Virus record (IMG/VR): IMGVR_UViG_3300045988_094645
DNA length: 57,970 nt
From: a virus
Direction: 5' to 3' (one strand)
Notes under the pieces: generated by a model
Database searches by the model: none
Told to the model about the DNA's origin: nothing
The model's input: only the letters and a program-made list of their open reading frames with translations
In this document: one piece after another, positions 251 to 8,620 of the stretch
Numbering within the stretch: position 1 is the first letter of the stretch
Layout: every line of letters begins with the position of its first letter
Position numbers and translations under genes: made by a program

Positions 251-767
251 ACTCAAGGCTAATGCCATATCCATCTTGGATAAATGACCCTTCTGGAATA
301 TAGATATTATATTCTGTAGACCAAGAGCCAAACAAAACATTTAGGACGGGATTTTTAAAGCGGACAGTGTTTTCTGTTGCATATGGAGCGTCGGAAGTTT
401 CTTGAATGTAAGTTTTATCTGCTTTAATAGACTTTGAAGTGATGCCTTTATCCGTTTGATATAGGAACGAATAGCAAAGTCCATCTTCTGAACTAAAGTT
501 ATCACTTAGTGCGATAATATCATAGGTTGCGATAGTTTCTGCTGAATAGGTTTCGGGGTTTGCACATTCAATGATGAATACGCATACTACGAGTGATAGA
601 AATGTTAGAAATATAGAGCCAAACATGGAAAAGAGTGAGCATACTATATACTCGATAATGCTGTCACAACCTGCGAGCAAAAAGATGAGCAGCATAATAC
701 AGAAAGCAATAGGTAGAATAATAGGTAGCATTACATTAACCTCCTTTATATATAAATATAATACCAT
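249..767 (-). CDS. putative lipoprotein or membrane protein (signal peptide with lipobox LLAGC, second hydrophobic helix); possible superinfection-exclusion-type moron
   Basis: supplied ORF; N-terminal MLPIILPIAFCIMLLIFLLAGCDS fits a lipoprotein signal peptide. Confidence 0.45.
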   Translation of the reverse strand: MVLYLYIKEVNVMLPIILPIAFCIMLLIFLLAGCDSIIEYIVCSLFSMFGSIFLTFLSLVVCVFIIECANPETYSAETIATYDIIALSDNFSSEDGLCYSFLYQTDKGITSKSIKADKTYIQETSDAPYATENTVRFKNPVLNVLFGSWSTEYNIYIPEGSFIQDGYGISLE

Positions 768-904
768 ATAAAATATACAATTTCAGATGCGGGAGGGCAT
801 ACAACGAATCGTCATAATTTCTCACGGATGCGGGAAAATTTTAGGCAAGAAAATTGCCAGTCCGCAGTTGTTATATTGTTTATTTTTTTAGAAAAAAGTT
901 TAAC

Positions 905-950
905 AAATTTTAGGACAAAGCAGAAAAATTATGGTATAATAAAAGTGAAA
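905..950 (+). promoter_or_regulatory. sigma-70-type promoter with extended -10 (TGgTATAAT) driving the RHH gene; divergent region holds GATGCGGGA direct repeats at 793-801 and 830-838
   Basis: ttatggtataat sits ~25 nt upstream of the ATG at 971. Confidence 0.45.
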
Positions 951-970
951 TATAGTAGAGAGGTGATAAT

Positions 971-1114
971 ATGAATTATTCGACTGTTTCTGTTAGATTA
1001 ACAGAGGAAGAAAAAAAGACTTTAGAAGAGTTTGCGAAGGATAGAGATTTAACTATGTCGCAAGTAATTAGAAAAGCAGTAAAAGAATATATAGAAAACC
1101 ATTCGAACGACTAA
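971..1114 (+). CDS. ribbon-helix-helix (CopG/Arc-like) DNA-binding protein, 47 aa
   Basis: MNYSTVSVRLTEEEKKTLEEFAKDRDLTMSQVIRKAVKEYIENHSND; RHH beta-strand SVRLTEEE followed by two helices; RBS gagaggtga. Confidence 0.5.
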   Translation: MNYSTVSVRLTEEEKKTLEEFAKDRDLTMSQVIRKAVKEYIENHSND

Positions 1115-1130
1115 AGGAGACGAAAACAAA

Positions 1131-1349
1131 ATGACTAATAATTATAAGGTTTTTACTTTGAAGTTAGCTAGAAAGCTATGTGAGTTGGGATTTAAGGTTG
1201 TTGGAACAGCACCAAATGCTTAGAAACCTTGGTTAAATGTTTATCTTTTTGAAGATACTTAGGAATTAAGAGAAGCGATTGAGAAATATAAGGGACAAAG
1301 TTCGCTATTGGAGGATGATTGCCATGGCAGACAAAAGAAGAAGTCCTAA
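1131..1349 (+). CDS. small hypothetical protein (~72 aa) with two in-frame TAG codons read as sense
   Basis: MTNNYKVFTLKLARKLCELGFKVVGTAPNA[TAG]KPWLNVYLFEDT[TAG]ELREAIEKYKGQ... continues to TAA; RBS AAGGAGA. Confidence 0.4.
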
Positions 1350-1713
1350 TTAGCGAACAGTAAGTCATATTCATAAAGAGCCTTGTAATACTAATAATAT
1401 ATATGCTAGAATTAATAAGGATGCTTTATTTGCGGCGAGAAGAGAACTTAGTGATGGTGAGTTTTCTTTATGGATATTTTTTGCTAGTTAGTCAGAGAAG
1501 TTGACAGATTATGATTTTGGCCCTACTATTATTGAGAGGGAGTTGGGTATAAAGAAAGCTAAATATACAAATGCAATAGAAGGATTGGTAGAAAAAGGGT
1601 ATTTGATTCCTCTTGAGAAGAAGGGGTATTACGATTTTTACGAAGTTCCTAAAATTATTGACGAGGATAAATATAATTATGTCGCTCCCAACGGAGAAAA
1701 ATTTTCGTTTTAA
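1324..1713 (+). CDS. replication initiator-like / winged-helix DNA-binding protein (~129 aa) with two in-frame TAGs; sits next to the iteron array
   Basis: MADKRRSPN[TAG]RTVSHIHKEPCNTNNIYARINKDALFAARRELSDGEFSLWIFFAS[TAG]SEKLTDYDFGPTIIERELGIKKAKYTNAIEGLVEKGYLIPLEKKGYYDFYEVP... resembles plasmid/phage Rep N-terminal wHTH; the 3' part is the supplied ORF 1501-1713. Confidence 0.45.
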
Positions 1714-1715
1714 TT

Positions 1716-2012
1716 TTCATGTATTTCTGAGAATACCATGAAAATTTCATAGTATTGTGAGAAACCTATGAAATCATGTATTTGTTGGAAAGTTATGAAA
1801 ATTTCATAGTATTCTGACAAATACATGATTTTAATTGAAAGATTTATTTCATGGTATTCCAACAATACTATGACATGGTATTCTGACAATACCATGAAAG
1901 TAAATAAAAATCCATTTCATGGTATTCTGACAATACCATAAATATAACATATATAAGATAACAAAGAAAAGACAACGGCGACTTTTTCATGTATTTGTGA
2001 GAAAGCGATGGA
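1716..2012. repeat. iteron/operator array: ~8 copies of a 25-29 bp imperfect palindrome, consensus TCATGGTATT-CTGAC-AATACCATGA
   Basis: copies at 1716-1742, 1745-1773, 1775-1802, 1802-1828, 1848-1874, 1874-1899 (perfect 10-bp arms), 1915-1942 and 1984-2012. Confidence 0.7.
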
Positions 2013-2026
2013 TAGGGAGGATAACC

Positions 2027-2176
2027 ATGGAAGATTTTCAGAGGTGGGAGGATATTCAAGGAAGTATAGATGGGACGATGGGAGCAAATGATTTAGAAAA
2101 TCGAATTGAAAAGCTGGAAGAAGGTTTTAGAAAAATCGAATCAAAAATTAAAGGGAAAAGTCAAGAAGAAGAGTAA
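2027..2176 (+). CDS. small coiled-coil protein, 49 aa
   Basis: GGGAGG RBS then ATG; MEDFQRWEDIQGSIDGTMGANDLENRIEKLEEGFRKIESKIKGKSQEEE; ends TAA. Confidence 0.35.
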   Translation: MEDFQRWEDIQGSIDGTMGANDLENRIEKLEEGFRKIESKIKGKSQEEE

Positions 2177-2458
2177 TGGGTAGGGTAAGAGAGATTAATA
2201 GAGGTAGAGGAAAAGGGATTATTGAATCTATATGAGGATTCGAGTTAGATTACAAGCGAAGCCATAAGAAAGTGGATAGACTATAGGGAGAATATAAGTG
2301 AAATTGGAGAAAATTAGAAGAATAGTAGAGAAAATTGGAGAAATAGTAGAGTTGGGTGCCGATCGGGTCTAGGTACAACCATCACAACACTCGTCAAAAC
2401 GATCGTAAACCTAGGCTTCCGCGATTCTTCTACTTCTTTCCTCTTGTTTAATAGCAAT

Positions 2459-2492
2459 AAAAAAAGAGAGGTATCTCTACCTCTCTTTTATC
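2459..2492. terminator. intrinsic terminator AGAGAGGTA-tctc-TACCTCTCT with A-run before and T-run after
   Basis: hairpin lies directly 3' of minus gene 2488-2961. Confidence 0.55.
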
Positions 2493-2961
2493 TAAGCCCT
2501 CTCAAGAACTTAGCTACCACATCTTCATCATTGTTGCTCTTGATGGAAACGGAGACCGATTCATTTCGCATCTCCTGAATCGCCTTCTCAATTATCTTAT
2601 CAAGCTCTTCCTCTGTCGCTGCAAGTGCATCATTGATATTATTCATCCCGACAATTCGGGCAGAAATACGAGCAGTCTCAGTGATAGCCTCTGCATATTT
2701 ATTGATAGTATCAGCATCCCACTCAGGGTGAGAAGGAGCATAAATAAGAACTGCAAGCTGTCCGATATGCTCTGCATCAAGATGCTCATCATCAACAGCA
2801 TTTAGAAAGTCGCACTCAATTTCATCCAAAGCTTGCTGACGAGCCTTCCGAACCTGATTCTGCTTATTAAAGACATTTAGAGCATCAGTAAACTCCTTAG
2901 CAATATCGTCGAGAGACGCACCGCCATCAAGAGCACATTTAATCATATTAGTATAATCCAT
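2488..2961 (-). CDS. hypothetical acidic protein (157 aa)
   Basis: supplied ORF; upstream minus promoter TTGCAA-17-TATAAT at ~2975-3003 and RBS AGAGGA. Confidence 0.45.
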   Translation of the reverse strand: MDYTNMIKCALDGGASLDDIAKEFTDALNVFNKQNQVRKARQQALDEIECDFLNAVDDEHLDAEHIGQLAVLIYAPSHPEWDADTINKYAEAITETARISARIVGMNNINDALAATEEELDKIIEKAIQEMRNESVSVSIKSNNDEDVVAKFLRGLR

Positions 2962-3455
2962 GGAATATATTCCTCTTTTCTTTCCTTTTATATTTATATT
3001 ATATAATATTATTTTATAAATTGCAACCGATCGGCCCTAGCTTAAAGATCTTTTATTCTAAAATAACTTCTCTGATTGAGGCATCGACTAGAAAATTCTT
3101 AGCTAGAGAATAAGTCTTTTTAATTGTATCTATAAAAGTATAGAACAGGTGAACATCAAGAAGATTTGCTGAAAATGAGGCAAATTTTGCTAATTTTTAA
3201 GTAATTTTATTAGAAAAATGTGCGTTTTTGCTAGATTTTTAGAGAATTTTCGCTATATTAAGAGAAAAACAAGAGGAAAAACCTGCGGACCGATCGGTTT
3301 ACCTAGCTAAAAGTAGAATTTTCTAGCTATTTTTATTATAAAATCTCGTTATTCCGATCGGCGCCGCAGAAAAATCTCTCGCTGGTATTTGTTTTTCATA
3401 GCAACATCTTTGCTATTGTTAGCTGTATAGGGGATAATGTTAGTCTTATGAACAC

Positions 3456-3490
3456 TTGACAATTTTAAATTTTTTTATTATAAAAAATGG
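3456..3490 (+). promoter_or_regulatory. plus-strand sigma-70-like promoter TTGACA-17-TATAAA in the non-coding region; only a tiny ORF lies downstream, so it may drive an ncRNA
   Basis: cttgacaattttaaatttttttattataaaaaatgg. Confidence 0.3.
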
Positions 3491-3668
3491 ACGAGAAAGC
3501 CGCTATTGCTGGACCGATCGGGATAAGATAGAAAACCGATCGGGTTATAATATAATTTTGGGAGATTCTAGACTAAGTTGCGTTATGGCCAACTTGCTAT
3601 GAAAATTTTGCGCTATGGTCCGATCGGGGAAACTCGGGCCGACACATCCCTGCGCGGCCCGGCGAAGT

Positions 3669-4283
3669 TCAAGGTATTGCTCGTATTAATTCTAAAGTTT
3701 TTTCATACCCATATTTAGAAATTAATCGAGTAGTTTCTCGAGTAATTTCTTCTCGATTCTTTAGCATTAAAAGGGTATTTTGTTCTTCTGTCGCCCATCT
3801 TAGATTCTCTAATCTATTATCTGTTCTGATTCCATTAATATGGTCAACTACCTTAGTTTCAAAATCCTCAATAGGGTTAAAAGTTTGCATAACAAGACGA
3901 TGAATTCTAACTGATTCACCACCGATTAATTCAGTTTTTAAATATCCATCCGAAGTCATAGAACCTTTAACTAGAGTTTTAGAATCCTTTTTTCTTACTC
4001 TTCCAAGATTAGAAACTTCGTGCTTGTTGGAACAGTAAGCGGTTTTCCAAATTTCTCCGGGGAGGGATTCCGCAATTTCAGATTTTCGAGTAGAAAAAGT
4101 AGAAGAATCAATAATCTAAGGAGAAATTTCTTTTACTTCATATATAGCTTTTGCTCCTACTCCTTGTTTTGAAATAAGATAGCCTTTTTTTGCTTGATTT
4201 GATGCAAATTTAGGAAAGTTAGTTGTAACGGTAGATTTAGAAGCATGGAAAAATTCAAGTAGTTCGTCAAGATTAAAAGTCAT
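3669..4283 (-). CDS. HNH homing endonuclease (NUMOD4-like N-terminus plus HNH/AP2-type core), ~204 aa; needs read-through of one in-frame TAG
   Basis: rc translation from ATG at 4283 (RBS GGAGG): ...KEISP[TAG]IIDSSTFSTRKSEIAESLPGEIWKTAYCSNKHEVSNLGRVRKKDSKTLVKGSMTSDGYLKT...HRLV...VDHINGIRTDNRLENLRWATEEQN. The NUMOD4 motif EIWK...VSNLGRVR lies between the TAG and the supplied ORF start with no alternative ATG. Confidence 0.6.
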
Positions 4284-4371
4284 TTTAAATACCTCCTTTG
4301 TTTCTATTATATATTAAAAATTCGGAAATGTCAATTAACCGTTTTAGTCCGAATTTTTCCGATTGAATTAT

Positions 4372-4394
4372 AAAGAGGGCCGAAGCCCTCTTTA
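4372..4394. terminator. bidirectional terminator AAAGAGGGC-cgaa-GCCCTCTTT; a near-identical copy lies at 7066-7092
   Basis: perfect stem flanked by A/T tracts. Confidence 0.55.
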
Positions 4395-4395
4395 A

Positions 4396-4647
4396 TCAAG
4401 TCTTTTCGATAAATCCAATGGTGCTAAAGTTTATATTATTGTAGCCAATGGAGAATTCGTTCTCAGAATTATAAAATGTAATAGCGCCGTATTCTTTCGT
4501 ATAATCGCAAATTGCGTTTACAACAGCATCCCATTTTCGTTTTCTATCTATTTGTTTTCTTGCTTGCATTTCTTTTTCACAAGCGGAAAGAAGATATTGC
4601 AAAGTTTCATCATTCATTTCCGCAATATTAAATCCAGAATTATCCAT
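4396..4647 (-). CDS. hypothetical protein (83 aa)
   Basis: supplied ORF; TGA stop; terminator downstream. Confidence 0.4.
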   Translation of the reverse strand: MDNSGFNIAEMNDETLQYLLSACEKEMQARKQIDRKRKWDAVVNAICDYTKEYGAITFYNSENEFSIGYNNINFSTIGFIEKT

Positions 4648-4664
4648 CTTAAAATCTCCCTTCT

Positions 4665-5113
4665 TTATTTGAAAATCTCGGTTGGAATTTCATTGAAAAC
4701 TTGCTTGAATTGTTCCATAGTAAGCTCTTTTGCCGCTCTCTCAACCCTTTCTTTTGACCAGTCGCAGACCATTTCACAGGAGATAAACTTGATTCTATAT
4801 CCGATAACTCTATAAATTTTAGGCGACCATCTAAATTTCCCGTCCGCCATATTTCCAGTGAAAATTATAAAATCGCCCGTGGCTCGTCTTTCTTCTGATT
4901 GTTTAAGCTGATCTTCTGCTATCTCTAAGGCATATTTTTCTCCGGTTTTAATGGCATCTTCTTCTGTTCTAGTATTGATAAAGAAGGTAGAACGCATAAA
5001 ATCATCTTGAAACGATACTGTAAACCAATAGGGCCTCTTGAAGAAAATTCCTTTTCGCCCCTCACAGTCAAAGGTAATCCGAAAATCAACTCGAAACTTC
5101 TTCAAACTCTCCA
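4665..5113 (-). CDS. hypothetical protein (~149 aa; likely start MESLKKF at 5113 with GGGAGG RBS; the longer supplied ORF runs into the promoter)
   Basis: supplied ORF 4665-5183; minus promoter TTGACA-17-TGgTATTAT at ~5130-5165. Confidence 0.4.
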
Positions 5114-5304
5114 TTTTCTTTACCTCCCTTGTTGAGATAATAATACCATATTTTCGGGAGAATGTCAAGCAGTCATTTTGCACAAAAAATCGAGTGAAAA
5201 TTATCTAAAATGCAAATAGAAGAAAAACTCGGTCCGCGGCGCACGCAAGCGGACCGCCCGCATATTGAGATAAAAAAACCACCCCATTTCTGGGGTGGTT
5301 CTTG

Positions 5305-5675
5305 TTAGCTTAGAATAACCGGGTATGCCTTGCGGATAATGACTGTTACCATGCGCGGGGGCGTGTCACAGAGAAAGCGGTCGTTTCTGATAAAATGTCC
5401 AATTCCCATATTTTGCCATAAAGTCCGGTTCAAGTCCTCATATCGAAGGGTATTATACTTAGATAACCGGATATACCAATCATAGGAAAAAGCACTATCC
5501 ACAGGCATGGTATAGTCTTTTGCCCGTTTATAATTCCTTGTATGCTCGGCGGCCCGTCTTTCGAGGTCGTTTGTTGTGCCAATCTTGAGAATATAGCGTC
5601 CCTTTACGTCTACATAATGCCCGACGTATAGAAACTCCTTTTCCCGTGTCTGTGTGCTAACTATGGAATACCTCT
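5305..5675 (-). CDS. GIY-YIG domain nuclease (putative homing endonuclease); N-terminal boundary uncertain
   Basis: same frame as supplied ORF 5305-5508 reads ...KEFLYVGHYVDVKGRYILKIGTTNDLERRAAEHTRNYKRAKDYTMPVDSAF..., matching the GIY...YIG...R...E motif spacing; no canonical start found upstream. Confidence 0.45.
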
Positions 5676-5680
5676 TTTCT

Positions 5681-5709
5681 GGTAGGGCTGGGGTAGGCCA
5701 GCCCTACCC
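5681..5709 (+). terminator. intrinsic terminator GGTAGGGCTGG-ggtaggc-CCAGCCCTACC followed by a T-run
   Basis: perfect 11-bp stem; ttatttttt follows. Confidence 0.5.
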
Positions 5710-5711
5710 CG

Positions 5712-6029
5712 TTATTTTTTCGGTTTACGCTTTTGTACAAGCGTTAACTCGAAACTATCCCCGCCGATAAAAAACGCAATTTGGCGTTCCTTGTTTGTTA
5801 TGGCAAGGTCAACAATCGAGAATTGACTATTTTTTTCCAAAAAGTCCGCCAGCTCTGCGATTATGCCGCCTTTAGTTGCGTTTGGCTTGCGTTGCCGTGG
5901 TGTAAATTTGTAGGCGGTAGGGGTTTTTCTTGTGCCAGCATGGGCGAATTTCTGCGCGATTTTCGCTTTATCGGGCGATAAATCGTATTGAGTTTTTTCA
6001 CCAGCTTCCACCGCCTTGTCATAGGCCAA
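5712..6029 (-). CDS. hypothetical protein (105 aa), GC-rich
   Basis: supplied ORF. Confidence 0.4.
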   Translation of the reverse strand: MAYDKAVEAGEKTQYDLSPDKAKIAQKFAHAGTRKTPTAYKFTPRQRKPNATKGGIIAELADFLEKNSQFSIVDLAITNKERQIAFFIGGDSFELTLVQKRKPKK

Positions 6030-6166
6030 TAGCTCCGCCTCCTCCTCTGGTGTCAGTTGGAGAGGCTTATATCTCGATAACCTCTCGGCGTCAGTGATAC
6101 GGCTCGATATAGTCTCACCCCCTAAGATAGAGTAGGGCGGGGATTTTCGCCCCGCCCTATACGGGG

Positions 6167-6568
6167 TTACGCCATCTTAAAGAGAGACTTGCCCTTCTTC
6201 TCCTGACAGGTCACACGGCCGTCCAGCTTGAGCATCCGCACAAGGGCGGCGGCCTTCTGAGTGGAGAAAGCGGCCAGAGAGGGCACAGACTTGAAAATGT
6301 CGGTACAGGTCACGCCGTCGGTGTCATCGGGCAGGCCGGCCAGATACTCCATAATCTGCTCCTTCAGGCTCTCGTTCTCCTGCTGGGTCGGGGTCAGCTT
6401 CTTGTCACCGCCGGAGCTATTCTTCTTCCGCAACAGCTCCAGCTCATGGTCAATGACGGTCATGGCAATCTCCATGGTTGTGCCATGCTTCACCTCCTCA
6501 CCAGCCAAGAGGGCCTTAATGTCCTCGAAACGCTGGGCCTTAGTGATACGGATTTTCTTCTCGCTCAT
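6167..6568 (-). CDS. hypothetical protein (133 aa), markedly GC-rich (~58%) compared with its surroundings
   Basis: supplied ORF; RBS AAAGGATG; terminator GGGCGGGGattttcgCCCCGCCC at 6135-6160. Confidence 0.45.
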   Translation of the reverse strand: MSEKKIRITKAQRFEDIKALLAGEEVKHGTTMEIAMTVIDHELELLRKKNSSGGDKKLTPTQQENESLKEQIMEYLAGLPDDTDGVTCTDIFKSVPSLAAFSTQKAAALVRMLKLDGRVTCQEKKGKSLFKMA

Positions 6569-6617
6569 GGTAATACATCCTTTCTGGTTTTTAGGACTGT
6601 CCTTGTCCTTTGATTAT

Positions 6618-6950
6618 ATTGTACCACACTATCGGGAGTTTGTCAAGAGGTTTTTCAAACTTTTTTCAAGAGCTTTTGCCCTTTACTTGTTTGCCCTCTC
6701 TCGTTCCCCTTATAGTGTAACACACTTTGGAGAGTTTGTCAAGCCCTTTTTTATTCACTTTTCAAGGTTCCTTGCCTTGTTTTCTGTACTTATTATAGCA
6801 CACTCACAAGGGCTTGTCAAGAGGTTTTTTGAAAGATTTTTGAAAGTTCGCTGTCGCTGTCTGCCGTTCGTCTCTCTCACTTTCTGTACTTATTGTACCA
6901 CACCACAAAGCGGATTTCAATTGTGAGATCCTCCAAAAGAACGTGATTTT
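6618..6950 (-). promoter_or_regulatory. tandem array of four near-consensus sigma-70 promoters, all facing gene 6167-6568
   Basis: rc modules: TTGACA-17-TACAAT (~6620-6650), TTGACA-17-TACACT (~6715-6745), TTGACA-17-TATAAT (~6795-6830), TTGAAA-17-TACAAT (~6880-6915); the modules share a GTGTGGTACAAT-like -10 context. Confidence 0.5.
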
Positions 6951-7091
6951 GGGATAGGGTTTTTGTGCAAAATGTTGCACAAAACGGAATCAAATTTTTT
7001 GTGCAACATTTACAAGGAAAAAATCGGGTCGCGCCGCCCATGCGCGACCCGCCAAAATATAAAACAAAAAAAGAAGGCCGAAGCCCTCTTT

Positions 7092-7274
7092 TTATCCGAA
7101 AAGGCAGTTATCTAAAAAGTCGAACAGGTGTTCATCCTCGGCGGGGATGGATACCAGTATATCCCCGTTTTCATCGGGTTCATCATGGCTCCATCCCATA
7201 CGCTTGATGATTTCAAGCGCCGTGAAAACGGCATCGGGACAAAGGGAAGAAGTATATACAATTCTTGTTTGCAT
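7092..7274 (-). CDS. small hypothetical protein (~60 aa)
   Basis: MQTRIVYTSSLCPDAVFTALEIIKRMGWSHDEPDENGDILVSIPAEDEHLFDFLDNCLFG; a second ~49-aa ORF (MFQGLKNKAIRF...) lies at ~7278-7427. Confidence 0.3.
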   Translation of the reverse strand: MQTRIVYTSSLCPDAVFTALEIIKRMGWSHDEPDENGDILVSIPAEDEHLFDFLDNCLFG

Positions 7275-7456
7275 ATTTAACCCTCTTTCTTTGAGTAGAA
7301 CTGGTCGGCATAAAACTGCATTTCTTTCTGCGTTACCTTGGAAAGCATGGCCTTGATGGTAAATACATCTGGGCACGTCCGCTCAAGTAGGAAGCGAATA
7401 GCCTTATTCTTTAATCCCTGAAACATTTCTTATTTCTCCTTCTACCGGGCGGGGCA

Positions 7457-8281
7457 TTAAGCCCCGACCCGGATTGTCGGAATCTGCCGCAAACTTGCGG
7501 AAAGCTGACGCTGAAAATCTGTCATGGGCGGAAACTCCCGCTTGTTCTCATACAGGGCCTTTCTCATGGGCTTATGCTGGCGCATACAGTACCACATGAT
7601 TTCCGCCTCAATCAGAACATCTTCCAGTCCCGTGTGGCTTTCCTCAAAATCAGTGTTGCCGGAGATAAACCGCCACACGATTTCCGCAGTCTTGCGGGGA
7701 ACGTCATTAGCCTGCACATACCCGTGTTCCTCACAGAATTTCTTATAGGTGGGCATCTGGCAAATGACATCTTGCGTCATTTTCATAATGTCCCAAATTT
7801 CCACGCTGTCAAATGGGAACCAATACCGGAATTTGGAACAAGTGACCCAACGCTGAGTGACCCGAAGGGCGTTATCATCGAAGCGGGCATTATATGCGGC
7901 GACCTCCTTAATGCCGTACCGCTCGATAGTGTCCAGCATGGCCTGACGGATTTCATAGGTAGTAGCCATCTTGCGACTGCCAGCCCGCAATTCCTCTACA
8001 TACCGGGGGATTTTCCAGTTATAATAGGCCGTCCGCATTAAATCCCGCTCGTCATTGAAAATATCCCGATTTACAAAACTTGCGGTTTCGTAAATATTGC
8101 CTTTGGTGTCTACGACCGCCCAGCCGCAGTCATATACCAAAACATTTGACATATCCATACGGACGCGCTCTGGAGTAATAATTTCCCCATCTTCCCCAAT
8201 TTCAGCGGGGACAGTCTCGGTTAATGTGTTGGCGGTTTCTGTATCAACCACCAGCACATAATGTCGGCGTTTATCAATCAT
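7457..8281 (-). CDS. DnaQ-like DEDDh 3'-5' exonuclease (274 aa)
   Basis: Exo I motif VLVVDTETAN near the N-terminus and H-x4-D (HTGLEDV) near the C-terminus; perfect TTGACA-17-TATAAT promoter at ~8310-8345; TAA stop inside a terminator hairpin. Confidence 0.55.
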   Translation of the reverse strand: MIDKRRHYVLVVDTETANTLTETVPAEIGEDGEIITPERVRMDMSNVLVYDCGWAVVDTKGNIYETASFVNRDIFNDERDLMRTAYYNWKIPRYVEELRAGSRKMATTYEIRQAMLDTIERYGIKEVAAYNARFDDNALRVTQRWVTCSKFRYWFPFDSVEIWDIMKMTQDVICQMPTYKKFCEEHGYVQANDVPRKTAEIVWRFISGNTDFEESHTGLEDVLIEAEIMWYCMRQHKPMRKALYENKREFPPMTDFQRQLSASLRQIPTIRVGA

Positions 8282-8454
8282 AATCTATCAAGTCCTTTCT
8301 TCTCTTGGTGGTATCATTATAGCACATTTAAGGCTTGGTGTCAAGAGGGATTTTATATTTTTTTTCTCCGTTGAAAAAGGCGTCGCGATAACCTCTCTCA
8401 CAAAAGGGACTCTTTACCCTACTCTGGAGAACTTTTTCCTTTCCTCCTGACATG

Positions 8455-8580
8455 ATAATAATACCATAGTTTCAGGATAATTGCAAGATGGCATTTTGCA
8501 CAAGATTTCTGCTTGAAAATTGTGCAACATTACAACAGAAAAAAATTCGGCCCGCGGCGCTCAAGCGCGGGCCGCTGATT
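8455..8580. repeat. ~125-bp intergenic module (GC hairpin terminator, TTGCACAA/TTGTGCAA inverted motif, TTGCAA-17-TGgTATTAT promoter), ~90% identical to 9905-10030
   Basis: direct comparison of the two segments; related partial copies at 5135-5265, 6955-7060, 11455-11585 and 13036-13070. Confidence 0.6.
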
Positions 8581-8620
8581 TTCTTTATATAAAAAATTCT
8601 CCCATTTAGGGAGGATTTTT

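What the first reader, a model, noticed from the sequence alone, without database searches (positions are those of the whole stretch)
971..2176. Plasmid-like replication module: RHH protein, small protein, winged-helix Rep-like initiator and an eight-copy palindromic iteron array
Gene order and motifs resemble iteron-plasmid or phage-plasmid replicons. A CopG-like RHH gene and a Rep-like gene sit directly upstream of ~8 copies of TCATGGTATT-N5-AATACCATGA (1716-2012), one with perfect 10-bp arms. No integrase is visible in the window. With the CCGATCGG array nearby, the element could replicate episomally.
Basis: partly seen in the sequence, partly recalled or inferred. Interest (0 to 1): 0.55.

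Follow-up and report, generated by a model that had tools for sequence, protein, structure and literature searches.

The report
Recoded phage's likely replication origin
A small operon in a large gut phage that reads TAG as glutamine encodes a winged-helix DNA-binding protein sitting next to eight copies of its probable binding site and an A+T-rich tract, which most likely form the phage's replication origin and belong to a three-gene cassette, not described before, that is shared among Clostridia phages.

Summary
The eight-copy palindromic array (1715-2013) and the gene order are real and far beyond chance. They are intact only because this roughly 115-120 kb phage reads TAG as glutamine. No repeat copy has perfect 10-nt arms; the best has 9.

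The 129-aa protein is a single winged helix. Its uncharacterised family of 687 representatives links, through profiles, to the N-terminal origin-binding domains of phage initiators (O-like, DnaD-like). It does not match plasmid Rep_3 or RepA_N. In relatives, lineage-specific palindromic repeats spaced about 24 bp apart, plus an A+T-rich stretch, lie inside the gene, as in lambda O/ori-lambda and SPP1 gene 38/oriL. An invariant 10-mer, AAATATWACA, follows the repeats in six of ten lineages.

The repeats occur nowhere else in the 58 kb. They are not at the operon's promoter, they precede no conserved gene, and their variation does not preserve base-pairing.

Best reading (about 0.55): an origin-binding protein plus its origin, with the RHH protein as probable autoregulator and DUF5659 as an unknown partner. 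The plasmid-like or episomal reading is not supported but is not excluded. The cassette RHH, DUF5659, DNA binder and repeats recurs in other phages with a swappable binder. This is a new variant of a known kind.

The parts
912..940 (+). Promoter-like site AGGACA-17-TATAAT with an upstream TG. Probable promoter of the operon.
   Evidence: Best consensus match in 700-3700. The -35 region TTTTAGGACAAA and the extended -10 are invariant in five relatives.
971..1114 (+). RHH (ribbon-helix-helix) gene, 47 aa. Probable autoregulator of the operon (inferred).
   Evidence: Pfam DUF6290 2.2e-11 and RHH_1 1e-8. PHROG Arc/CopG-like repressors. Conserved as the first gene of the cassette in distant phages.
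1131..1349 (+). DUF5659 gene, 72 aa, with TAG sense codons at 1221 and 1260. It overlaps the start of the next gene by 26 nt. Function unknown.
   Evidence: Pfam DUF5659 1.1e-6, above the cutoff. In-frame TAGs. The TAG at codon 31 aligns with a nearly invariant Gln. Model is beta-alpha-beta-beta-alpha at pLDDT 77, with no fold neighbour in the PDB.
1324..1713 (+). 129-aa winged-helix protein with TAG sense codons at 1351 and 1489. Proposed origin-binding protein. It has a conserved N-terminal arm, one winged helix, a short linker and a conserved C-terminal G-x-K-F-S-F tail.
1715..2013 (.). Array of eight 29-nt palindromic sites (iterons): 1715-1743, 1745-1773, 1772-1800, 1802-1830, 1847-1875, 1871-1899, 1915-1943 and 1985-2013.
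   Evidence: Conserved, with 8-9 copies, in L009 and L002.
1930..1969 (.). A+T-rich, easily melted tract that starts with the family-wide 10-mer AAATATAACA (1940-1949). Candidate DNA-unwinding element.
   Evidence: 99th percentile for low duplex stability among 40-bp windows. Nearly invariant among relatives. The 10-mer is the only + strand copy in the window and lies in the module of 6 of 10 lineages, P about 3e-11.
2027..2176 (+). Small coiled-coil ORF of 49 aa with a strong ribosome-binding site. Not a conserved part of the module.
   Evidence: Replaced by other ORFs in L009 and L002, and partly similar in L007.
2462..2489 (.). Hairpin followed by a T run. The only terminator-like site, and the probable end of the transcription unit.
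2359..3627 (.). Seven CCGATCGG motifs in the adjacent gene-poor stretch. A neighbouring, unexplained set of cis-elements whose membership in the module is not shown.

Best explanation
This is the replication-origin module of a large tailed phage that reads TAG as glutamine.

One promoter (912-940) drives an RHH gene, a DUF5659 gene and a 129-aa winged-helix gene. Transcription continues through a 300-bp array of eight palindromic sites and an A+T-rich tract.

Proposed mechanism:
1. Dimers of the winged-helix protein bind the palindromic sites cooperatively.
2. The resulting nucleoprotein complex strains the adjacent A+T-rich tract, which starts at AAATATAACA, and helps it melt.
3. The protein's conserved C-terminal aromatic tail (GEKFSF) recruits a partner that brings in a helicase. 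The partner could be DUF5659 or a host or phage loader.
4. The RHH protein probably represses the operon promoter through the GGACA-type repeats around the -35 region.

Shown: the genes, TAG read as Gln, the sites and their uniqueness, the winged-helix fold, the family's profile links to phage initiators, the embedded-repeat layout in relatives, the conserved 10-mer, and conservation of the cassette.

Inferred: which protein binds which site, origin firing, helicase recruitment, and the roles of the RHH and DUF5659 proteins.
For: 1. The sites are real, unique to this locus and conserved.
2. The protein is a winged helix. Its family has 687 representatives. Members match HTH_36 (58 of 150), PHROG 'replication initiation protein' phrog_270 (94) and phrog_428 (49), 'DnaD-like helicase loader' phrog_186 (68) and 'replication initiation O-like' phrog_678 (47).
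3. In L016, L018/L041, L043 and L044/L045, five or six lineage-specific palindromic sites spaced about 24 bp apart lie inside the ORF just after the winged helix. 43 of 150 family members show the matching 8-residue peptide repeats, followed by an N/T/I-rich stretch that needs A+T-rich DNA. This is the layout annotated for lambda, with four iterons inside gene O, and described for SPP1, with oriL inside gene 38 next to an A+T-rich unwinding element (PMC6316719).
4. AAATATWACA follows the repeats on the coding strand in 6 of 10 independent lineages, in coding and non-coding DNA alike. The background rate is 1e-5 per base, giving P of about 3e-11.
5. The half-site GGTAWT/AWTACC is shared between the window and L016/L018. 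The association between repeats and a DNA binder holds with or without an RHH gene (L015, L019/L020) and when the binder family is swapped. The third-gene product, not the RHH protein, is therefore the likely binder.
6. The sites are not placed like operators. None lies at the operon promoter, the downstream ORF is not conserved, and in relatives the sites sit inside coding sequence.
7. Variation among the 25 copies breaks arm pairing in 74 of 89 varied pairs and is compensatory in only 6. The copies therefore conserve sequence, not structure.
8. In the roughly 93 kb of this phage lineage that I hold, this is the only initiator-like protein. No window protein has a Walker A motif.
Against: - The protein's own matches to initiator profiles are weak: HTH_36 at 0.004, phrog_270 at 0.04, phrog_186 at 0.084. 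The link is therefore transitive.
- hhalign against lambda O aligns the equivalent domains but is not significant (E=0.16).
- Foldseek returns only generic winged-helix hits, regulators included.
- At 129 aa the protein has no recognisable helicase-recruiting domain, and no loader or helicase gene lies next to it.
- There are no DnaA boxes nearby.
- The A+T-rich tract is not the least stable spot in the window.
- In two other contexts the family co-exists with a canonical initiator: Rep_3 in L016 and a DnaD-like initiator in the 22-kb phages. Its role there could be a second origin or something else.
- About 28 kb of the genome was not examined.
- There is no experimental evidence.
Confidence: 0.55

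Rival explanations
1. Plasmid-type maintenance replicon. The cassette would be a self-contained low-copy replicon that keeps the phage genome as an episomal prophage, separate from a lytic replication system encoded elsewhere. The RHH protein would act as a CopG-like copy-number repressor.
For: - An RHH gene sits upstream of an initiator-like gene.
- The cassette is portable and recurs in unrelated phages.
- It co-exists with a canonical initiator in the 22-kb phages and with Rep_3 in L016. This is what a second, maintenance replicon would look like.
- Resolvase genes lie near family members in several MAG loci.
- No integrase was seen in the window.
Against: - No Rep_3 or RepA_N similarity.
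- One winged helix and palindromic sites, rather than two winged helices and direct repeats.
- No match in PLSDB plasmids.
- No partition NTPase or toxin-antitoxin pair next to the cassette in any context.
- The nearest phages by terminase are large Firmicutes siphoviruses.
- The lifestyle of this phage is unknown.
Confidence: 0.15
2. Transcriptional control region. The winged-helix protein would be a repressor or activator, and the eight palindromes would be operators that set the timing of downstream or read-through transcription.
For: - Palindromic sites suit dimeric regulators.
- Foldseek hits include Zur, CodY and MarR.
- The last site (1985-2013) lies just upstream of the ribosome-binding site of the small ORF, and site 7 overlaps a weak promoter-like match.
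Against: - No site lies at the operon's own promoter or anywhere else in the 58 kb.
- The downstream ORF is not conserved.
- In relatives the sites lie inside the protein's own coding sequence.
- Eight to ten sites over 300 bp, plus a conserved A+T-rich element, is unusual for an operator.
- The family's profile links are to initiators.
Confidence: 0.12
3. Centromere-like segregation site. The winged-helix protein (and/or the RHH protein) would coat the repeat array to position or segregate phage DNA, either without a dedicated NTPase (as proposed for pSK1 Par and R388 StbA, cited from my own knowledge) or with a host NTPase.
For: - Small winged-helix or RHH proteins binding arrays of 7-12 repeats next to their genes are typical of centromere-binding proteins.
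- TubR appears among the weak fold hits.
- The cassette co-exists with canonical initiators in L016 and the 22-kb phages.
Against: - No ParA, ParM or TubZ-type NTPase lies next to the cassette in any of six or more contexts.
- The conserved A+T-rich 10-mer and the embedded-in-gene layout are features of origins.
- The PHROG links are to initiators.
Confidence: 0.08
4. Packaging recognition site. The protein would be a small-terminase-like pac-site binder whose recognition repeats lie in or beside its own gene.
For: - In pac phages the pac site often lies within the small terminase gene (my own knowledge).
- The protein has an N-terminal DNA-binding domain and a C-terminal docking tail.
- The DUF6291/HTH_7 alternative shows a weak PHROG hit to a small terminase.
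Against: - The gene lies 17 kb from the large terminase, in an early-type operon.
- The model shows no oligomerisation domain.
- The 22-kb phages have a separate small-terminase-like gene next to the large terminase.
Confidence: 0.03
5. The palindromes act as RNA hairpins in the operon transcript (for stability or processing), or the locus is a decayed gene with no function.
For: - The array lies inside the transcription unit.
- Under the standard code the genes look broken.
Against: - 74 of 89 varied arm pairs break pairing and only 6 are compensatory.
- There is no Rfam match.
- TAG aligns with Gln in 143 of 147 distant homologs.
- The genes are conserved at full length in relatives.
Confidence: 0.02

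Closest known systems
Phage lambda O protein and ori-lambda
   Same: - An N-terminal winged-helix origin binder.
- Four or more sites with dyad symmetry, spaced 20-24 bp, followed by an A+T-rich tract.
- In relatives of this family the sites lie inside the gene, right after the DNA-binding domain, as in O.
- The origin lies within a transcribed unit.
   Different: - Homology to O itself is not significant (hhalign E=0.16).
- Here the sites lie just after the stop codon.
- The protein is 129 aa and has no O-type C-terminal domain.
- No P-like loader gene follows.
- There are eight 29-nt sites rather than four 18-nt ones.
Bacillus phage SPP1 gp38 (replisome organizer) with oriL/oriR
   Same: - A Firmicutes phage origin binder whose repeats lie within its own gene next to an A+T-rich unwinding element (PMC6316719).
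- Family members match the PHROG 'DnaD-like helicase loader' and 'replication initiation protein' families.
   Different: - SPP1 repeats are direct, and gp38 is followed by loader gp39 and helicase gp40.
- No loader or helicase accompanies this module.
- The sites here are palindromic.
Iteron-plasmid initiators (Rep_3 family, e.g. pPS10 RepA)
   Same: - Winged-helix initiators that bind arrays of repeats beside their gene.
- A genuine Rep_3 gene sits near the RHH and winged-helix gene pair in L016.
   Different: - No Rep_3 or RepA_N match.
- One winged helix, not two.
- Palindromic rather than direct repeats.
- No DnaA box.
- No match in PLSDB.
pMV158 copG-repB operon (RHH copy-number control); comparison from my own knowledge
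   Same: A small RHH gene is the first gene of an operon that also encodes the replication initiator, which suggests autoregulation.
   Different: RepB is an HUH rolling-circle nuclease, and no such protein is present here. The RHH operator in this module is not identified.
Centromere-binding proteins with repeat arrays (TubR/tubC, ParR/parC, pSK1 Par); comparison from my own knowledge
   Same: Small winged-helix or RHH proteins beside arrays of 7-12 repeats.
   Different: No partner NTPase is present. The A+T-rich conserved element and the embedded-in-gene layout are not features of centromeres.

Membership tests
Phage O-like / DnaD-like / HTH_36 replication initiators | N-terminal winged-helix domain homologous to the family | tested here: inconclusive
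   The protein itself gives only weak matches: HTH_36 E=0.004 (17.3 bits against a cutoff of 25), phrog_270 0.04, phrog_186 0.084. Family members match more strongly: HTH_36 in 58 of 150 (best 8e-11), phrog_270 in 94, phrog_186 in 68, phrog_678 in 47. hhalign against lambda O gives E=0.16.
Phage O-like / DnaD-like / HTH_36 replication initiators | Four or more repeated binding sites within or beside the gene | tested here: met
   Eight sites lie 2-300 nt after the stop codon. In L016, L018, L043 and L045 the sites are embedded in the gene.
Phage O-like / DnaD-like / HTH_36 replication initiators | A+T-rich unwinding region next to the repeats | tested here: met
   The tract at 1930-1969 is in the 99th percentile for low stability. 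AAATATWACA is conserved across lineages. Relatives carry an N/T-rich peptide stretch at the same place.
Phage O-like / DnaD-like / HTH_36 replication initiators | C-terminal domain or adjacent gene that recruits or loads a helicase | tested here: not met
   The protein is 129 aa with one domain and a short tail. No window protein has a Walker A motif. No loader or helicase neighbour occurs in any context.
Phage O-like / DnaD-like / HTH_36 replication initiators | Origin activity and specific binding shown by experiment | not testable with these tools
   Needs EMSA or footprinting, and origin mapping.
Iteron-plasmid Rep (Rep_3 / RepA_N) | Match to Rep_3 (WH1 plus WH2) or RepA_N profiles | tested here: not met
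   No such hit at E up to 1, and none among 150 family members. As a positive control, the L016 neighbour scores Rep3_N at 1.5e-28.
Iteron-plasmid Rep (Rep_3 / RepA_N) | Tandem direct repeats of 17-22 bp bound by monomers | tested here: not met
   The sites are 29-nt palindromes.
Partition systems (types I-III) | ParA, ParM or TubZ NTPase gene in the operon | tested here: not met
   None in the window or beside the cassette in L041-L048.
RHH (CopG/Arc/MetJ superfamily) | Profile match to ribbon-helix-helix families | tested here: met
   DUF6290 2.2e-11, RHH_1 1e-8, RHH_9 7.6e-6.
Phages with TAG read as Gln (genetic code 15) | In-frame TAG codons at positions where homologs have Gln, and coding density restored by read-through | tested here: met
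   ORF coverage rises from 41% to 92%. TAG at codon 10 aligns with Gln in 143 of 147 homologs. Codon 31 of the DUF5659 gene aligns with a nearly invariant Gln.
Phages with TAG read as Gln (genetic code 15) | Phage-encoded suppressor tRNA with anticodon CUA | tested here: inconclusive
   None in the window. None among about 29 tRNAs in relatives. About 28 kb was not examined.

The most novel reading that the evidence does not exclude
The cassette RHH, DUF5659, sequence-specific DNA binder and cognate repeat array would be a previously undescribed, portable replicon module of Clostridia phages.
- Its binder-and-repeat pair can be swapped. The winged-helix family occurs with several different iteron sequences, and a DUF6291/HTH_7 protein can take its place.
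- The binders carry a shared C-terminal aromatic tail, and the winged-helix lineages carry the invariant AAATATWACA element. Both would plug into one conserved partner.
- The module would work as a second, independently controlled origin. That could mean plasmid-like carriage of the phage genome, or origin-specific competition between co-infecting phages.
- DUF5659 would be the adaptor to the host helicase-loading machinery.
Probability: 0.2. Interest if true: 0.7.

Novelty: new variant of a known kind. Interest (0 to 1): 0.5.

Why it matters
- Replication origins of uncultured, stop-codon-recoded gut phages are essentially unmapped. This locus gives a concrete, testable origin and origin binder for a lineage of roughly 115-120 kb Clostridia phages.
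- Standard-code annotation breaks the key genes. It would report only a 70-aa fragment of the binder, so modules like this one are missed systematically.
- The comparison assigns a likely role to a large unnamed winged-helix family (687 representative clusters, all labelled 'hypothetical').
- It places DUF5659 and DUF6290 in a conserved functional neighbourhood.
- It identifies an invariant DNA 10-mer that could mark origins in related elements.
- If the cassette proves to be a portable replicon, it could serve as a part for building vectors for gut Clostridia.

Tried and rejected
- DNA search of 800-2500 against GenBank phages: no match.
- tblastn of the 129-aa protein, and of a consensus-like relative, against phages and plasmids: no match.
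- Rfam scan of the whole window: nothing.
- Sequence search of the family profile against the PDB: only generic winged-helix fragments, E of 0.015 or higher.
- Foldseek of the winged-helix model: generic hits, E of 0.08 or higher, which do not discriminate.
- Foldseek of the DUF5659 model: no meaningful neighbour, best E 0.37.
- hhalign against lambda O: not significant.
- DnaA boxes: none within 700-3700, and no enrichment in the window.
- GC skew follows the direction of transcription and says nothing about an origin.
- Terminal redundancy: none. The window is not a complete genome.
- Literature: no paper mentions DUF5659, and the only mentions of DUF6290 are incidental.
- Walking about 35 kb beyond the window in relatives found tRNAs, homing endonucleases, UDG, dUTPase, RuvC, a small resolvase, an AAA ATPase and tail-fibre-like genes. 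It found no polymerase, helicase, primase, ParA or suppressor tRNA.
- My by-eye call of a G39P-like loader in the 22-kb phages was not confirmed by Pfam or PHROGs, and I dropped it.
- The search for related loci with the 150-sequence alignment failed because no stretch was conserved enough.
Full report
THE OBSERVATION

The region holds four + strand ORFs and a repeat array, as described. However, translating 1131-1349 and 1324-1713 under the bacterial code gives two in-frame TAG stops in each.

This is not decay. Across the window, ORFs of 100 aa or more cover 41% of the DNA under code 11 and 92% when TAG is read through, and the longest ORF grows from 466 to 2,905 aa. Public gene callers already hold full-length versions of the 129-aa protein with Gln at those positions. 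In an alignment of 150 family members, the TAG at codon 10 falls on a column that is Gln in 143 of 147 distant homologs. The TAG at codon 31 of the DUF5659 gene falls on a nearly invariant Gln. The element therefore reads TAG as Gln, as described for other gut phages (PMC9523058, PMC10607447).

The array consists of eight 29-nt palindromic sites between 1715 and 2013. Their consensus is TTTCATGGTATTCTGACAATACCATGAAA, with invariant CAT-N4-TT-N5-AA-N4-ATG. A matrix built from the sites scores them at 21-37 bits. The next best position anywhere in the 58 kb scores 8 bits, and the best score in 50 shuffles was 19 bits. The claim of perfect 10-nt arms is not correct: the best arm is a perfect 9 nt.

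WHAT THE ELEMENT IS

The window is about half of a tailed-phage genome.
- IMG/VR contigs of 96-121 kb carry the same module at 80-99% identity and are collinear with the window.
- The large terminase is closest to those of large Firmicutes siphoviruses: Enterococcus VRE9_4/H1/EF1 at 51%, Geobacillus E3, Phass-1 at 44%, and SPbeta-like phages.
- Distant relatives of the module's proteins occur in Clostridia, Blautia and Acutalibacteraceae MAGs.
- Relatives carry about 29 tRNA genes 10-27 kb to the left of the module, none with anticodon CUA among those seen.

THE PROTEINS

- Gene 1 (971-1114) is a ribbon-helix-helix protein: DUF6290 2e-11, RHH_1 1e-8.
- Gene 2 (1131-1349) is a DUF5659 protein (1e-6, above the cutoff). 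Its model is a small beta-alpha-beta-beta-alpha unit with no structural neighbour in the PDB. No paper mentions the family. Its ORF overlaps the start of gene 3 by 26 nt, and that overlap is conserved in relatives.
- Gene 3 (1324-1713) is modelled with confidence (pLDDT 89). It has a conserved, non-helical N-terminal arm (residues 1-30), one winged helix (helices 32-41, 44-54, 67-74 and 78-91, wing 94-105), a short linker and a C-terminal tail.

The gene 3 protein's own profile matches are weak: HTH_36 at E=0.004, phrog_270 'replication initiation protein' at 0.04, DnaD-like phrog_186 at 0.084. An exhaustive profile search finds 687 representative relatives. Of 150 that I aligned, 58 match HTH_36, 94 match phrog_270, 68 match phrog_186, 49 match phrog_428 and 47 match the O-like phrog_678. 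All of these matches run through the winged-helix domain. None matches Rep_3 or RepA_N. Every member that a public source names is 'hypothetical protein'.

Structure search returns only generic winged-helix hits, regulators included. hhalign against lambda O pairs the equivalent domains without significance (E=0.16). Membership in the initiator superfamily is therefore likely but transitive.

COMPARATIVE ANATOMY

This is the strongest evidence.

1. In relatives with 32-41% identical proteins, lineage-specific palindromic repeats lie at the same place.
   - L016 has GTTAATACC-AAA-GGTAATAAC at 24-bp spacing.
   - L018/L041 and L043 have GTTAATAC-AAAAG-GTAATAAC.
   - L022 has ATTTGG..CCAAAT.
   - L044/L045 have TTCCGG..CCGGAA.
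   In the long forms these repeats lie inside the ORF, directly after the winged helix.
2. The repeats leave a protein footprint. 43 of 150 members carry 8-residue peptide repeats such as VITKCNN x4 and DVSKRYN x4. An N/T/I-rich stretch follows, which can only be encoded by A+T-rich DNA.
3. That layout (DNA-binding domain, then iterons, then an A+T-rich tract, all inside the initiator gene) is what the lambda record annotates for gene O: four iterons at codons of about 117-145, spaced 20-24 bp. It is also what is described for SPP1 gene 38/oriL (PMC6316719).
4. In the window's lineage the same elements lie just after the stop codon.
5. The 10-mer AAATATWACA follows the last iteron of the main cluster in the window (1940), L009, L002, L016 and L018, and lies within about 100 nt of the gene's end in L014, L015 and L017. 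It is always on the coding strand, in coding and non-coding DNA alike. It is the only + strand copy in the 58-kb window. Against a background of 1e-5 per base, finding it in the module of 6 of 10 independent lineages has P of about 3e-11.
6. The stretch 1871-1965 (sites 6 and 7, their spacer and this tract) is nearly invariant among relatives whose genes are about 80% identical. The tract is in the 99th percentile for easy melting.
7. The half-site GGTAWT/AWTACC is shared between the window's sites and those of L016 and L018. This points to the winged-helix protein as the binder.

WHY NOT OPERATORS, HAIRPINS OR A CENTROMERE

- No site of this type lies at the operon's promoter or anywhere else in the window.
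- The ORF after the array is not conserved.
- In relatives the sites are inside coding sequence.
- Among 25 copies from three genomes, 74 of 89 varied arm pairs break pairing and only 6 are compensatory. Selection therefore acts on half-site sequence, not on a hairpin.
- No NTPase lies next to the module in any context. This argues against a classical partition locus, although an NTPase-less system cannot be excluded.

THE CASSETTE

Searches anchored on DUF5659 show that the order RHH, DUF5659, DNA binder, repeats is conserved well beyond this phage.
- It occurs in phages of about 22 kb (L041/L042), where the winged-helix protein is 34% identical.
- It occurs in L044-L046, with a weakly related winged-helix protein that carries embedded TTCCGG..CCGGAA sites and a WSFVF tail.
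- It occurs in L047/L048, which share synteny with the large phage. There the third gene is a non-homologous DUF6291/HTH_7 protein followed by its own short repeats, and L047's protein also ends in EFRF.

31 of 150 winged-helix family members end in F-x-[FWYL] after a variable linker. This suggests a docking peptide for a shared partner.

In four relatives the promoter is preceded by three or four direct repeats of TGTCCAAAAWTTTCTAAT. All five sequences share the -35 region TTTTAGGACAAA. This is a plausible operator for the RHH protein, but the assignment is inferred.

CAVEATS

- The 22-kb phages also encode a clear canonical initiator (phrog_4707 at 3e-24). L016 encodes a genuine Rep_3 protein. 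In those elements the cassette's binder is a second initiator-like protein, so its role could be a second origin, a maintenance replicon or something else.
- In the large phage it is the only initiator-like protein in the roughly 93 kb that I hold.
- No polymerase, helicase, primase or loader was seen.
- About 28 kb remains unexamined.
- There are no DnaA boxes near the array.

VERDICT

The 'Rep-like initiator plus iterons' reading is supported by comparative evidence. It is of the phage type (lambda O, SPP1 gp38) rather than the plasmid Rep_3 type. The plasmid-like or episomal reading is untested.

I put the reading of an origin plus its origin-binding protein at about 0.55. The rivals are a plasmid-type maintenance replicon (0.15), an operator array (0.12), an NTPase-less centromere (0.08), a pac site (0.03) and RNA hairpins or gene decay (0.02).

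It is a new variant of a known kind, for these reasons:
- the binder has only a single domain;
- the iterons lie outside the gene;
- the RHH and DUF5659 genes are conserved partners;
- the binder-and-repeat pair is swappable;
- the 10-mer AAATATWACA is invariant across lineages.

Noticed in passing
whole window, densest in 16208-54513 (+ strand): TAG is a sense codon (Gln) throughout. For example, there are 98 TAG codons in a 2,841-aa ORF (32750-41275) and 25 in a 478-aa ORF (30435-31871). Many minus-strand early genes have none. ARAGORN finds no tRNA gene in the window.
   Followed up: yes
window 55656-57969: A complete-looking diversity-generating retroelement on the minus strand. It has a reverse transcriptase (55656-56873, RVT_1 1.8e-16) and a 164-aa gene that looks like Avd by eye but has no Pfam hit (57315-57809). 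The template repeat is 57182-57246 and the variable repeat is 57905-57969, at the very edge of the window. 14 of 15 mismatches fall at template adenines. The target gene is cut off by the end of the window. In relatives it is a 542-aa protein that I did not annotate.
   Followed up: partly
window 2359, 3027, 3290, 3354, 3514, 3536, 3620: - Seven copies of the 8-bp palindrome CCGATCGG, usually followed within a few bases by CTAG, all lie in a 1.3-kb gene-poor stretch. There are none elsewhere in the 58 kb.
- Their number and order are conserved in relatives at about 80% identity, while the flanks diverge.
- Clusters also follow the cassette in L044, L045, L047 and L048 whatever the third gene is. 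They are absent from the 22-kb phages.
- The binder and the function are unknown.
   Followed up: partly
window 3643-5224: This block carries an HNH endonuclease (HNH_3 plus NUMOD4, 3669-4283) and two small genes. It is absent from the 99%-identical relative L006, so it looks like a mobile homing-endonuclease island. Relatives also carry GIY-YIG endonucleases among their tRNA genes.
   Followed up: partly
window about 5200-10300: A G+C-rich stretch (up to 49%, against 36% overall) with poor or ambiguous ORFs on both strands. It contains a roughly 106-nt repeat at 8454-8560 and 9911-10015. No Rfam family matches. I did not work out what is encoded here.
   Followed up: no
window 13339-15800 (minus strand): Auxiliary genes that are unusual for a phage: a PTH2-type peptidyl-tRNA hydrolase (13339-13668), a microbial-type poly(ADP-ribose) glycohydrolase (13653-14417) and a FolD-like methylene-tetrahydrofolate dehydrogenase/cyclohydrolase containing 7 TAG codons (14976-15800).
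   Followed up: no
L032 12091-21025 and L037 10247-15707 (relatives, 10-27 kb to the left of the module): An array of about 29 tRNA genes, including tRNA-Gln with anticodons UUG and CUG. No tRNA with anticodon CUA was found among them, so the source of TAG decoding in this lineage remains open. About 28 kb of the genome was not examined.
   Followed up: partly
window 781-870; L009 9455-9560; L002 630-720: Upstream of the operon promoter, relatives have three or four direct repeats of TGTCCAAAAWTTTCTAAT. The window instead has GATGCGGGA twice plus TCCGCAG. TGCGG/CCGCA motifs also flank several of the CCGATCGG sites. This may be a second set of regulator sites.
   Followed up: no
L016, L018/L041, L043 and many contigs listed: Long-form members of the winged-helix family sit on contigs of a very uniform 21-25 kb. 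Where I looked, these encode a full set of head, tail, lysis and terminase genes. This suggests a group of very small Clostridia phages or satellites with two initiator-like genes.
   Followed up: partly
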